From the NCBI RefSeq assembly GCF_009914755.1, contig NC_060935.1: a stretch of DNA of 64,000 bases; one strand, 5' to 3'. The notes under the pieces were generated by a model. It ran no database searches and was not told where the DNA came from. It worked only from the letters and a program-made list of their open reading frames with translations. Made by a program: the position numbers and the translations under genes. Position 1 is the first letter of the stretch, and each line of letters starts with the position of its first letter. This DNA is from the human T2T-CHM13v2.0 reference genome, Homo sapiens. Below are positions 39,303-55,677 of this stretch, piece after piece.

Positions 39303-39446
<144 letters not shown>

Positions 39447-47442: not shown

Positions 47443-49721
47443 ACTTGCATGCACGCAGCGTTTTACACCAAGGAGGTAAGGGTGCAAAGAAAAAACTCTG
47501 GCCCAGGAATCATGGTTTTTCCTTTGGGGTTCCTCCTCTGCCATGAGCTGCCTGGGAGTGAGTTGAACTAGCTGAAATCTAAGGTACGGAATATCCTGGA
47601 TTTATAATTCTATGATAACTCATTTTTATTTTCTTTTTTTAAGTAACTGAAATATGCAGTATTATAGCATATAAATTATTTCCGTCTTTGTTGAACTCAT
47701 GATTCTAAGAAAATAAGTTTTATAATGACTATTAGAGTACTTCATTTCAGTCTGAGGATTGACTAAAACCTTATATATCATAAAATTAGTACAGAAAACG
47801 CTCTGAAAGTGCTAGGTAACACCCACAATTTCAAAATCTTTTGAAAGGTCAATTGAGCTATCATTTGGCATTTTTATTACAAGTTTTTTATTTGGAGGGG
47901 GCATGTGCTTCAGATATTTTCAGTTTAAACTGCACCTAGTTTATTTTTTCATCAATTGAACTGTCAAATCTGTTAAAATAACAGAAAGGAAAAAAAATTA
48001 TTGTTCTCCTTTTGTAAGAGAATATTTGAGGTTATGAAAAACCTTGTTTTTTTTCCTCAGAATATTTGAGATTTTTCTGCTCTGCCGTGAAGCACTATGG
48101 AACAAAACCAGGCTAAGATAATTCCATCAAGCACTTAGCCACACACACAGTGCCTAGAATGTACGTAGTAAGCATGCTTAACAGTGGTGCTTGTTGCTGC
48201 GGTATTCCTTATGTCATGAGACAAGGGATTTTTTTGTATTTCAAATAGTTTTTGTCTAATATACTGTTACTGTATAAAATTCAGAAATAAAACCATTTTG
48301 AAGAAAGCCTTATCCTATATCACTAGATGCCACTAGAGAGTTATATGGGTCTCTGGATTCTACTATAGAAGACACTTTGGTTCCGTTATTTCTGGCAATA
48401 TGTATATGTTTGTGGTGCTAAAATGGAAAATTTTGAAAAGTCCATTTCACAAATAGCTTCCTTTTTTTGGTGTACTATGGTTTTCACAGCTTTATTGAGG
48501 TATAATTTGCATACCATAACATTTACCTATTTTAAGTATTCAGTGATTTTTAATAAATATATGGAGTTGTGCAGCCATCACCACAATCCAGTTTTAGAAC
48601 ACATTTCTGTCACCCCAAAAAAGATCCCTGCTGCCTGATTGCAGTCATTTTTTTCCTCCCATCTCTATCCCTAGACAATCCGGATCTGTTTTTTGTCTCT
48701 AAAGTTTTGCCTTTTGTCTATATTTCATATAAATAGAAGCATGTAATGTTTGGTCTTTTGTGACTAGATTTTTTCAGATTTAGCATGATTAAGGTTCATC
48801 CATGTTGTAGCATTTATCAGCTGTTCATTCCTTTTGTTACTAAATTATATTCCATCATTATGCGTTTTTACATTTATTGCTAAATCTTTGTATTATATCA
48901 GAATTTTTAAATTAGTGAATGGAATTATAGATTATAGTTTTATTCAATAGAAGTTTCTGTGGTGATGGAAATGTTCTGTGTTAAACTGTCGAATACAGTA
49001 GCTACTAGACTTAATTTAAGAAGCCAGAGGGATGTGTGGGTGGTTGACCTTGTCTAACTGGGCCCTTCTCAAACTCTCCTACTCATGCCTTCACCCCATA
49101 GGGCAGGACCTCAACTGGCCTAGCAACCAGGTTGCCTCAGGTCTTTGGCCATGCAAATATTATCCTTCTTTGTGTGTGTGTGAAGTGAAAAGGGATGACA
49201 AACACTGACTAGGGGTCCCTCCTCTACATTCCCATTCTGCTGTAGGTACTAATTGGATGGGATTGTCATTGCCTGCTTGTTGTACTGTTCTTCAATCAGA
49301 TTAGGAACTTCTTGAAGCAGGTCTGTCTTATTTTATTACTATTTTTATCATAGTGTCGCACACAGTGTCATTCACATGGGCAGCTAGTAAATACTTGTAG
49401 AGTCAACAATTGAATTATTTTTGTTTCTGATTATTGTTGTCATTATGGTTCAACATAGCACTAAGAAGAGGAATTTTTCTTTAATGTTCATGTTGATCTG
49501 ATAACTTGGTCTTACAGATAAAAACTAGCTCTCTTCCACCACCACCACCACACACATCTTTTACGTAAAGACTTTTATTCTTAATTTTTGGCAGAACAAA
49601 ATTATTTTGTGAAAGCCTCAGGACTTATTCTATTAATAAAATAAACATCACCATTAACTGTGTTTGACCAAGGCTATGCTTAATATCTAGAATTTAAAAA
49701 GAGAAAGGGAAGCCTCCGTAT

Positions 49722-50010
49722 ACTTCAGTCCTCAGCTCTGGCAGCTGCCCATCGGACAAAGGAACAGGACGATGATGCTGGCGTCGGTGCTGGGGAGCGG
49801 CCCCCGGGCGGGCCTCTGCTCTGGCCCCTCCTGGGGCCCGCACTCTCGCTCCGGGCCCGCTCCTCTTCCGCCACTGCCATGGACCACGAGAAGATGGTGC
49901 AGGAACACTCCAGGGCTGCCATCTCTTTCTTCAATCAGTCAGCTATGAACCTGACAGCTGAGAAGCCATCTGTCATCTCACGCTGTCCAGGACCCTCTAT
50001 CCTAGCTGCT
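49722..50010 (+). pseudogene. Processed pseudogene fragment of BCKDK (5'UTR + N-terminal ~70-80 codons)
   Basis: ATG at 49772: MMLASVLGSGPR-(frameshift)-PLLWPLLGPALSLRARSSSATAMDHEKMVQEHSRAAISFFNQSAMNLTAEKPSV, versus recalled BCKDK [68 protein letters not shown]. Confidence 0.85.
49777..49860 (+). ncRNA. MIR1343: miR-1343 precursor hairpin (5p 49791-49812, 3p 49828-49849)
   Basis: CTCCTGGGGCCCGCACTCTCGC matches recalled miR-1343-3p; 5p arm TGGGGAGCGGCCCCCGGGCGGG pairs with it (GGCCCC/GGGGCC, GGGAG/CTCTC); intronic, sense to PDHX. Confidence 0.9.
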
Positions 50011-50126
50011 GAGTCTTTTCCACTCTTCTCCACTTTAAACTCTTTGTGGACAGAACCTTCTCTTTTTGTTGTTTTCATACCCAGTGCTTAGTACAGTGCC
50101 TTATACATTAATGTTTGTTGAATGAT

Positions 50127-50251
50127 CTGGTAGAAATGACAGAATATGGAATAAATGTGTCCTGATTCTGGTAGAAATGACAGAATATGGAAAAAAACCG
50201 TATCTTGATTCAGGTAGACATGACAGAATATGGAATAAATGTGTCTTGATT
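50127..50251. repeat. Minisatellite, 3 copies of 41-43 bp
   Basis: Unit C(T/A)GGTAGA(A/C)ATGACAGAATATGGAA...TGATT at 50127, 50168 and 50211. Confidence 0.9.
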
Positions 50252-52065
50252 CTAAATGGTTGTATAGCTAACATTTTATTTTTACCTAGAGATGTTGTAA
50301 AGTGTTACATAAAGATGTATGTGAAGCATTAACACTTCCAGCCCCATGACTTAAAAAATATATATCTATACATTTAAAATTTTCCTGAGAGTCAGAGAGA
50401 TTAAGTAACTTGGTCAAGATCACTAGTAACTGTCAGAGCTTGGAATCAAACTCATATTTGAATTAGGAGAGGTTCCTTGTAACTACTCTGCCAAGGAGTC
50501 TTTCTAAGTTATAGCACTAAATTTTTGATCACAGCTGAAACTCAGTAGATTTGAAATATTCATGGCTCATTATTTGCTCTCAGAGTTTTCTTTTGGCATT
50601 TACATGATGTTTGATTATTGAAAGATAGAACTTTGGTTTTGTGATGAGTTAGGGGTAATGCTTCCATACGTAATATTACTATGTTTTTAAAACTTCCCTG
50701 TGATTTATTGGTAAAGTTTTCTGTGTTTCTTTTCCCCACCTCCCTCTCTTTTGTCCTCTCCTTTTTTCCTTCTCTCTCCTCCTGCTTTTCTCTTCTACCC
50801 TCTCCCTTGGCATTCTCATCTAGCTAACATATATGTCTGTGTTATGTGAATAGATATAGTTTTTTAAAAAAGAAAAAAAGGCTATCTTTTTAAATATCAG
50901 AAGCATGCTACAAATCAAATGTTAGAAGCAAAAGAAATGTAAAGGATAATTTGATGTATACCTTATGAGGAAATAAGGATTCGTGAAGTTATCATGTTTT
51001 TTTCTAAAGCATTTTAATCTAAAATTCATTGGGTATGGTGCATTGGCCATGAAACCTGAGGAATGGGGATGGGAATATAAAACATTTAAGTGTCCTGTCC
51101 GTATTGTGAAGAAGCTCATAGTCTAGTAAATAGAGGAAATCACAATTTAAAAAAGTAATTAGCAGTAATATAACATTTTATATGCAATTTGTGATTTTTA
51201 AATAAATTAGACCTACTATAGGAATCTGGAATATGAACAAAATTATGTAGGTCAAGTTACTCAGAGAAAGTTATATAGCTGAAGTCGAATCTGTAGTTCT
51301 TAAAGTGTGGTTGGAATTTGAATACTGATGAACACAAATGATGATATAGCATCATTTTGTTTTTCTGTGGCTAGAGTCTGTTTTCTAGGCATCTAAGAGG
51401 TATTTAATTGCTGGGTTTACTAGTTCTATAGTTTTTCCCGTGATTATAGCAGAAATCTTTGAGGGTGTGCTTTTTTTCCCTTTTGAAGTGCAATCTGTTT
51501 TAACCACTAAAACATTTAAAGAAGTATGTAAGATGATATAATCTGACACTGTAGCTTTCTCTATGACATACAAAGGTCATTTTTGGTCTCTTCCTGCATA
51601 TCTTACCAGCCTAATCTCTCGTCACTTCTCTCGCATACTATTTGCCAGTTTCTCTGAAGTTTCCTGTTCTCTCTGCCTCCAGGGCTATAAGTGTATTACC
51701 TTCTACCTGGATCACTGCCTGTTTACAGATTGTCTCCTCCTCACCTCTTCAGGCTCAGAATAGGTGGTCATTGTATTCTAGGAAGCCTTTTCTCACCTTA
51801 CAAAAACTGAATTAGATGCCCCTCCTGAACATTCCCAAAGCATCCTGACCTCACCTTATCCTGCTGTATTTTCCAGTTTACTTGTCAATGGATATTAAGC
51901 AAGCTTCTTGAGGTCAGGAATCTTAAATCTTTGCTGTTATTACTGTCCACTGCTGTATCCTCAGTGCCTACATATGTATATATATTTTATATGTAATATA
52001 TAAATATATAATACAAATACGTGTGTGTGTGTGTGTATATATATATAAAATATATTTATATAATT

Positions 52066-55416: not shown

Positions 55417-55677
<261 letters not shown>

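What the first reader, a model, noticed from the sequence alone, without database searches (positions are those of the whole stretch)
49722..50010. miR-1343 appears to be carved out of a BCKDK retrocopy lying inside PDHX intron 2
Seen: a GC/CpG-rich ~290-bp patch in an AT-rich intron translates, with one frameshift, to a clear homologue of the BCKDK N-terminus, including upstream AAAGGAACAGGACG-ATG resembling the recalled BCKDK 5'UTR. Seen: the miR-1343 hairpin (49777-49860) coincides with the codons for the mitochondrial transit peptide. Recalled: AEK|PSV is a BCKDK exon junction; here it is read through without an intron, implying an RNA-derived copy. Inference: a miRNA was exapted from coding sequence of the kinase of the branched-chain 2-oxoacid dehydrogenase, hosted in a subunit gene of the sister pyruvate dehydrogenase complex. 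I do not recall this origin being described, but cannot check the literature.
Basis: partly seen in the sequence, partly recalled or inferred. Interest (0 to 1): 0.85.

Follow-up and report, generated by a model that had tools for sequence, protein, structure and literature searches.

The report
miR-1343 born from BCKDK retrocopy
The human microRNA miR-1343, which sits in an intron of PDHX, lies inside an old reverse-transcribed fragment of the BCKDK messenger RNA, and its hairpin is the stretch that once coded for BCKDK's mitochondrial targeting peptide.

Summary
The observation and the interpretation both hold.

**What is there**
- Window 49729-50010 (+) is a GC-rich island in an AT-rich intron (PDHX intron 2).
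- It is homologous to the 5' end of BCKDK mRNA and to nothing else in the human genome.
- The homology covers the 5'UTR, all of coding exon 2 and 45 nt of exon 3.

**Why it is a processed copy**
- The 92-nt BCKDK intron between ...GAGAAG and exon 3 is missing to the base.
- An alignment anchored at the junction was equalled by 1 of 5,000 shuffles, 1 of 9,800 BCKDK-locus starts and 1 of 20,000 window starts.

**The hairpin**
- Rfam places pre-mir-1343 at 49778-49859 (94.8 bits). This equals transit-peptide codons 3-30.
- Human BCKDK exon 2 itself also passes the Rfam mir-1343 threshold (73.6 bits against 51).
- The hairpin is 89% identical to the parent; the rest of the copy is 65-69% identical and has lost its CpGs.
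- Published cow and pig precursors are 77/78 and 76/78 identical and share the copy's frameshift. The copy is therefore at least boreoeutherian in age and constrained.

**Status in the literature**
- No paper found links miR-1343 with BCKDK.
- A 2023 survey of 17 "retro-miRs", which it describes as primate-specific, does not name it in its main text; its supplements were closed.

**Verdict:** a new and unusually old member of a known kind. How the copy came to be truncated, and its relation to a neighbouring SINE fragment, remain unresolved.

The parts
49729..49771 (+). Part derived from the BCKDK 5'UTR. It is solid from about 49754; the first ~25 nt are weak and could belong to the flank.
   Evidence: blastn against the BCKDK locus, L003 2643-2684; 30 matches in 44 alignment columns
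49772..49860 (+). Codons 1-30 of BCKDK (the mitochondrial transit peptide), with a 1-nt deletion that shifts the frame near 49806-49811
49778..49859 (+). pre-mir-1343 hairpin
   Evidence: Rfam RF03525 94.8 bits; fold -58.4 kcal/mol, z -3.1; 74 of 83 columns identical to human BCKDK
49791..49812 (+). miR-1343-5p arm (mature ends recalled from miRBase, not checked)
   Evidence: 5' arm of the fold; boundaries recalled
49828..49849 (+). miR-1343-3p. It corresponds to codons for ...PLLGPALSL of the transit peptide and differs from human BCKDK at 2 of 22 positions.
   Evidence: The mimic sequence in Table I of PMC11484188 equals this stretch; alignment
49861..49965 (+). Decayed remainder of BCKDK exon 2 (codons 31-65, the mature N-terminus, ending AEK)
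   Evidence: 73 of 106 identical for window 49860-49965, the span measured, which starts one base earlier than this part; 2 CpG against 13 in the parent
49965..49966 (+). Exon 2 / exon 3 junction of BCKDK with the 92-nt intron absent
   Evidence: Anchored alignment score 13; equalled by 1 of 5000 shuffles, 1 of 9800 L003 starts (position 2972 itself) and 1 of 20000 window starts (49966 itself); score 0 against the intron start
49966..50010 (+). Part derived from BCKDK exon 3 (PSV... then out of frame); end of detectable homology
   Evidence: 30 identical in 46 columns against L003 2972-3017
50036..50128 (+). Fragment of an old dispersed SINE-like repeat, same orientation as the copy, just downstream. 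By recall it is the 3' part of a MIR element.
   Evidence: A 20-mer from 50082-50101 has 834 genomic near-matches against 2 for the reversed control; copies L009 and L008 align to 50036-50109 and 50076-50128; a profile built from 28 core-anchored copies hits 50076-50109, E 0.0064 in an 801-nt search

Best explanation
A spliced BCKDK transcript was reverse-transcribed and inserted, in the sense orientation, into intron 2 of PDHX. This happened in a eutherian ancestor, before the human/cow-pig split.

Only the first ~280 nt survive: 5'UTR, exon 2 and the start of exon 3.

The GC-rich codons for the mitochondrial transit peptide already formed an imperfect hairpin in the parent mRNA. In the copy they were freed from coding constraint. 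A 1-nt deletion tidied the stem, and the hairpin became a substrate for the ordinary intronic miRNA pathway: transcription as part of the PDHX pre-mRNA, Drosha/DGCR8 cropping, Dicer cleavage, then miR-1343-5p and -3p.

Since then the hairpin has been held almost unchanged, while the rest of the copy decayed like a pseudogene.

Shown here: the homology, the missing intron, the coincidence of hairpin and transit peptide, the parent's own hairpin, and the uneven conservation.

Inferred: reverse transcription as the route, co-transcription with PDHX, Drosha/Dicer processing, and selection as the cause of the conservation.
For: Homology
- Unique genomic homologue: BCKDK exon 2, 78% over 208 nt, E 3.7e-40. 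A sensitive alignment gives 182/239.
- Protein level: E 1.3e-14 to rat BCKDK including its transit peptide.

Missing intron
- Intron 2 is absent to the base (1/5000 shuffles, 1/9800 and 1/20000 alternative starts; score 0 against the intron).

Direction parent to copy
- BCKDK has the intron.
- Its N-terminus is shared with platypus, opossum, turtle, chicken, frog, coelacanth and lungfish.

Hairpin
- The Rfam whole-genome search finds two loci over the cut-off: this one (94.8 bits) and BCKDK exon 2 (73.6 bits).
- The BCKDK alignment shows 2 non-standard pairs and indels relative to the model. The copy shows none.

Constraint
- Hairpin 74/83 identical to the parent, against 73/106 for the rest of exon 2, 30/44 for the 5'UTR and 30/46 for exon 3. 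Fisher p 8e-4.
- Parent CpG sites kept: 8/12 in the hairpin against 2/16 outside, p 0.005.
- bta- and ssc-mir-1343 precursors printed in PMC3280305 Table 2 are, by eye, 77/78 and 76/78 identical to window 49780-49857.
- They carry the same frameshifting deletion and the copy-specific CTG and TGG codons. Cow-lineage and pig BCKDK proteins (GPRGGPPLRPLL) could not encode this.

Age
- The copy's conceptual peptide has the eutherian-type transit peptide and not the shorter marsupial or monotreme one.
- It lacks the human or ape-derived states R8, G12, L15 and A26.
- MIR-1343 is treated as a MirGeneDB family scored across afrotherians (PMC10435380, passage).

Mature product
- The published miR-1343-3p equals window 49828-49849 and differs from human BCKDK at 2 positions.
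Against: - Only one exon junction is spanned.
- The exon 1 / exon 2 junction could not be placed because no annotation of the BCKDK 5' exons was available. The first ~25 nt of the alignment are weak.
- No poly(A) tract was found. No target-site duplication was found (1943 of 2000 shuffles score as high).
- The 3' ~85% of the mRNA is absent. Full-length BCKDK protein hits only 49772-49974 in the whole 64-kb window at E below 1.
- The tree of N-termini is weak. Copy plus eutherians has support 79/86. AU tests do not reject the copy grouping with catarrhines (p 0.136) or lying outside eutherians (p 0.20).
- The cow/pig comparison was made by eye from a printed table, and their genomic loci were not seen.
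- Processing and expression were not tested here.
Confidence: 0.88

Rival explanations
1. Chimeric retrocopy. A LINE reverse transcriptase started on a SINE (MIR-like) RNA, copied its last ~90 nt, then switched template to a BCKDK mRNA about 290 nt from its 5' end and ran to the cap. One event would give 5'-BCKDK fragment then SINE 3' part.
For: - A SINE-like fragment lies 26 nt downstream of the last BCKDK-homologous base, in the same orientation, and is the 3' part of its family.
- The BCKDK piece includes the mRNA's 5' end and lacks its 3' end and any poly(A). An ordinary 5'-truncated retrocopy looks the opposite way.
Against: - SINE copies of this family are dense here: 12 profile hits in the 64-kb window, including one on the other strand at 50385-50466. 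Adjacency may be chance.
- The upstream flank 49652-49688 weakly resembles the core of the same family (31 of 2000 shuffles reach the score). That would fit insertion into an existing SINE instead.
- The family name and the SINE's 3' end position rest on recall.
Confidence: 0.12
2. DNA-level duplication of the 5' part of the BCKDK gene into PDHX, followed by exact loss of intron 2.
For: The alignment may run a little upstream of the likely exon 2 acceptor. No poly(A) or target-site duplication was found.
Against: - The intron is missing to the base, with exon 3 following directly.
- Nothing in the window matches the BCKDK intron or promoter.
- Exact genomic intron loss is itself thought to go through cDNA.
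Confidence: 0.03
3. The hairpin is not a working miRNA. Its conservation reflects something else, such as an unmethylated GC-rich regulatory patch in PDHX intron 2, and the reported small RNAs are by-products.
For: - It is very GC-rich (0.82).
- The listing includes several serum/plasma biomarker and competing-endogenous-RNA ('sponge') studies, and some of the listed papers are marked retracted.
- CpG retention could also come from lack of methylation.
Against: - Near-identity of the whole hairpin between human, cow and pig, against decay of the adjoining 230 nt of the same GC-rich insert.
- All consensus pairs are standard.
- The family is used as a curated MirGeneDB family.
- Stem-loop qPCR detection in pig.
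Confidence: 0.06

Closest known systems
Retro-miRs (Mercuri et al. 2023, Mob DNA, PMC10486083; abstract and passages seen), for example miR-492, miR-622, miR-572, miR-4788
   Same: A miRNA precursor lying inside a reverse-transcribed copy of a protein-coding mRNA. This one fits their 'novel' class in differing from the parent within the mature sequence, though that class is described as lacking any stem-loop in the parental gene.
   Different: - Their abstract and results passages describe the 17 as primate-specific; this one is shared with cow and pig and is scored in afrotherians.
- The copy here is a 280-nt 5' fragment inside a host intron, probably too short and old for retrocopy catalogues.
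- Here the parent already folds well enough to pass the Rfam model, whereas they report no stem-loop in the parental genes of their 'novel' class.
- miR-1343, BCKDK and PDHX have 0 occurrences in their main text. Their supplementary tables could not be opened.
miR-220 and miR-492 in processed pseudogenes (Devor 2006; recalled, not seen)
   Same: First reported cases of miRNAs inside processed pseudogenes.
   Different: They are primate-restricted and lie in pseudogenes of other genes.
RB1 intron 2 CpG island from a PPP1R26 retrocopy (PMC4122923; abstract and passages seen)
   Same: A CpG-rich piece of a retrocopy inside a host gene's intron 2 that gained a new function.
   Different: There the function is an imprinted CpG island or promoter, and the copy is absent from mouse. 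Here the product is a miRNA hairpin and the patch is not a full CpG island (observed/expected 0.51). PDHX and BCKDK have 0 occurrences in that paper's main text.
Mirtrons and SINE-derived miRNAs
   Same: Intronic origin; a SINE is next door.
   Different: The hairpin is about 10.3 kb and 5.6 kb from the flanking PDHX exons (hub table), so it is not a mirtron. It does not overlap the SINE fragment (50036-50128).

Membership tests
mir-1343 (Rfam RF03525 / MirGeneDB MIR-1343) | Covariance-model score above the curated threshold over the full model | tested here: met
   94.8 bits against 51, model positions 1-82. Note that BCKDK exon 2 also passes at 73.6 bits.
mir-1343 (Rfam RF03525 / MirGeneDB MIR-1343) | Mature sequence identical to the published miR-1343-3p | tested here: met
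   Window 49828-49849 equals the mimic sequence in PMC11484188 Table I
mir-1343 (Rfam RF03525 / MirGeneDB MIR-1343) | Drosha/Dicer-type processing shown by read ends | not testable with these tools
   No small-RNA data are held
Processed (retro)copy of BCKDK | Significant, specific homology to the parent mRNA at another locus | tested here: met
   contig C11 against C16
Processed (retro)copy of BCKDK | Parental intron missing exactly at the exon junction | tested here: met
   Intron 2 (92 nt) absent; statistics. The intron 1 junction could not be placed.
Processed (retro)copy of BCKDK | 3' end of the mRNA with a poly(A) tract | tested here: not met
   Homology ends at about 50010, with no A-run. 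BCKDK residues after about 80 are absent from the whole window.
Processed (retro)copy of BCKDK | Target-site duplication | tested here: inconclusive
   No flank repeat above chance. At this age decay is expected.
Retro-miR (miRNA inside a retrocopy) | Precursor lies within retrocopied sequence | tested here: met
   49778-49859 lies within 49729-50010
Mirtron | Hairpin ends coincide with the splice sites of a short intron | tested here: not met
   PDHX exons at 39349-39429 and 55448-55548 (hub table); the hairpin is kilobases from both

The most novel reading that the evidence does not exclude
The transit-peptide-coding hairpin in BCKDK mRNA is itself a functional structure: a cryptic second mir-1343 locus or a Drosha substrate that tunes BCKDK. 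Retroposition then simply released a ready-made pre-miRNA. That would make miR-1343 the oldest known retrocopy-born miRNA, with a parent-copy pair that still share a seed.
Probability: 0.1. Interest if true: 0.7.

Novelty: new member of a known kind. Interest (0 to 1): 0.45.

Why it matters
- It gives a concrete origin for a miRNA family conserved across placental mammals. Protein-coding sequence, here a mitochondrial targeting peptide, supplied a near-ready hairpin that retroposition set free.
- It extends retrocopy-born miRNAs well beyond primates. A catalogue-based survey that reported only primate-specific cases does not name this one in its main text, probably because the fragment is short and old.
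- It carries a practical warning. BCKDK exon 2 passes the Rfam mir-1343 threshold, so model-based miRNA annotation can call the coding exon as mir-1343 and blur presence/absence calls across species.

Tried and rejected
- **Does miR-1343 target its parent?** Duplex energies of the 5p and 3p arms with BCKDK exon 2 are -36.0 and -30.2 kcal/mol. These are matched by 136 and 96 of 500 shuffled miRNAs. There is no 5p 7mer-m8 site in the 9.9-kb BCKDK locus, and three 3p sites at L003 626, 1813 and 5527. No support.
- **Target-site duplication.** None above chance.
- **Is the copy inserted into a SINE?**
  - The upstream flank against the nearby minus-strand copy is only weakly similar (31 of 2000 shuffles).
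  - A profile from 28 genomic copies gives no upstream hit.
  - A first profile was dominated by Alu sequence and was discarded.
- **Other searches with the downstream flank.** A whole-genome DNA search found only the flank itself. A within-window blastn found nothing.
- **More BCKDK sequence in the window.** tblastx and tblastn found none beyond 49745-50006. All other tblastx hits paired the same window stretches with many places in the BCKDK locus; I read them as shared Alu repeats, without a separate check.
- **Protein tree and AU tests for dating.** Inconclusive. Before the tree, the parts after AEK of the pig, dolphin and naked mole-rat rows were blanked because their gene models are mis-spliced there.

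Full report
**What is there.**
- Window 49700-49999 is 63-67% GC in an intron that is otherwise about 27-49% GC.
- Rfam places mir-1343 at 49778-49859 on the + strand: 94.8 bits, gathering score 51, E 1.4e-17, no non-standard pairs.
- The 98-nt stretch around it folds at -58.4 kcal/mol, z -3.1.
- By the hub's gene table the site lies in PDHX intron 2, between exons at 39349-39429 and 55448-55548, on the PDHX strand.

**Homology to BCKDK.**
- The frame from 49775 reads MLASVLGSGPR....
- The frame from 49774 reads ...PLLGPALSLRARSSSAT...SFFNQSAMNLTAEKPSV....
- That second frame matches PDB BCKDK chains. The best is rat 3tz0_A, E 1.3e-14, residues 8-68. Four further BCKDK sequences match, and the only other row is a non-significant one at E 0.56.
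- A DNA search of the whole human assembly with 49700-50050 finds two places: the query itself and C16:31496671-31496879 at 78% identity, E 3.7e-40.
- That second place is BCKDK exon 2. Its translation is the human BCKDK N-terminus and retrieves 223 BCKDK-family proteins.
- A sensitive alignment gives window 49729-49965 against L003 2643-2879, 182 of 239 columns identical. It includes the sequence just upstream of the ATG.

**A spliced template.**
- In the BCKDK locus the exon ends ...GAGAAG, followed by gt. A 92-nt intron ending in ag follows, and the next exon starts at L003 2972.
- In the window the base after GAGAAG (49966) aligns with L003 2972 and onward for 45 nt.
- An alignment anchored at both starts scores 13.
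- That score is reached by 1 of 5,000 shuffles, by 1 of 9,800 start positions in the BCKDK locus (2972 itself) and by 1 of 20,000 window starts (49966 itself).
- The same window stretch scores 0 against the start of the intron.
- The direction is parent to copy. BCKDK carries the intron, and its N-terminus is shared across tetrapods, coelacanth and lungfish.

**Extent.**
- Homology is solid from about 49754 and fades by 49729.
- It ends at about 50010, 46 nt into the 69-nt exon 3.
- A full-length BCKDK protein (P0016) hits only 49772-49974 in the whole 64-kb window at E below 1.
- tblastx finds nothing further.
- There is no A-run, and no flank duplication above chance.
- This is therefore a 5' fragment of about 280 nt, an unusual shape for a retrocopy.
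- One inference: a sense-oriented insert with a polyadenylation signal inside an essential gene's intron would be harmful, so loss of the 3' part may have been favoured.

**The hairpin is the transit peptide.**
- Codons 1-30 span 49772-49860, and the hairpin covers codons 3-30.
- Mature-form PDB chains begin at the residue aligned with query residue 30.
- Published miR-1343-3p equals 49828-49849 (PMC11484188 Table I).
- The parent already has the hairpin. Human BCKDK exon 2 scores 73.6 bits on the Rfam mir-1343 model, above the threshold, but with two non-standard pairs and indels.
- The parent hairpin folds at -54.7 kcal/mol, z only -1.4.
- The genome-wide family search returns exactly these two loci over the cut-off. 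Only 60 of about 591,000 first-look candidates were scored.
- The copy's frameshifting 1-nt deletion falls where the BCKDK sequence carries indels relative to the model.

**Constraint.**
- Against human BCKDK, the hairpin is 74/83 identical. The rest of exon 2 is 73/106, the 5'UTR 30/44 and exon 3 30/46. Fisher p is 8e-4.
- Parent CpG sites survive at 8 of 12 positions in the hairpin against 2 of 16 outside, p 0.005.
- At least four of the hairpin differences are changes on the human BCKDK side. Other eutherians have the copy's residue at positions 8, 12, 15 and 26.
- The bta- and ssc-mir-1343 precursors printed in PMC3280305 Table 2 are, by eye, 77/78 and 76/78 identical to window 49780-49857.
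- They contain the same deletion and the copy-specific CTG and TGG codons. Buffalo and pig BCKDK proteins read GPRGGPPLRPLL, so these precursors are orthologues of the copy and not of BCKDK.
- Neutral human-cow divergence is roughly 30% (recalled), so such identity implies purifying selection.

**Age.**
- The copy's conceptual peptide has the eutherian-type transit peptide (...PLLGPALSLRARS). Opossum and platypus have a shorter version.
- Together with cow and pig, this brackets the event between the marsupial split and the boreoeutherian ancestor.
- The MirMachine paper treats MIR-1343 as a MirGeneDB family scored across afrotherians and reports its loss in two elephantids (PMC10435380, one passage). 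This would push the event before the eutherian crown.
- The protein tree is too weak to add anything: support 79/86, AU p 0.136 and 0.20.
- None of the 15 papers listed uses mmu-, oan- or eca-miR-1343.

**Flanks.**
- Window 50036-50128 is a fragment of an old dispersed repeat in the same orientation as the copy. By recall it is the 3' part of a MIR SINE.
- A minus-strand copy of the same family lies at 50385-50466.
- Whether the BCKDK piece was inserted into a SINE, was joined to it by template switching, or merely sits beside it is open.

**Mechanism.**
- The most likely route is canonical intronic miRNA biogenesis from the PDHX pre-mRNA. This is inferred from position and strand.
- No evidence was found that miR-1343 specifically targets BCKDK.
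- The PDHX/BCKDK kinship looks coincidental.

**Literature.**
- 0 papers hold miR-1343 together with BCKDK.
- 1 paper holds miR-1343 together with PDHX, and only in a host-gene table.
- 0 papers hold any BCKDK pseudogene or retrocopy term.
- The retro-miR survey names 17 cases, described in its abstract and results passages as primate-specific. It has 0 occurrences of 1343, BCKDK or PDHX in its main text.
- About 1.7 million PMC articles are not searchable, so 'not in print' is provisional.

Noticed in passing
L003 2691-2773 (G000:C16:31496691-31496773): The coding exon 2 of human BCKDK passes the Rfam mir-1343 gathering score (73.6 against 51). Model-based annotation could therefore call it a second mir-1343 locus.
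   Followed up: yes
window 50126-50253: A tandem array of a 41-43-nt unit, about 3 copies, 84-87% matches, directly after the SINE fragment. Origin unknown.
   Followed up: partly
window 50385-50466 (- strand): A copy of a dispersed SINE-like repeat (E 7e-14 against a profile built from 28 genomic copies). The same profile hits 11 other places in the window.
   Followed up: partly
window 49757-49777 compared with protein P0074: Read by eye, the copy's 5'UTR just before the ATG translates to QRNRT-M. This equals the end of the N-terminal extension in a vole BCKDK model (...QQRNRTM). Here the copy seems closer to the rodent sequence than to human BCKDK.
   Followed up: no
proteins P0025, P0043, P0079, P0027: Several database BCKDK models are mis-built at or before the exon 2/3 junction. 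Pig, dolphin and naked mole-rat read through or skip after AEK. Dog has a long upstream extension.
   Followed up: no
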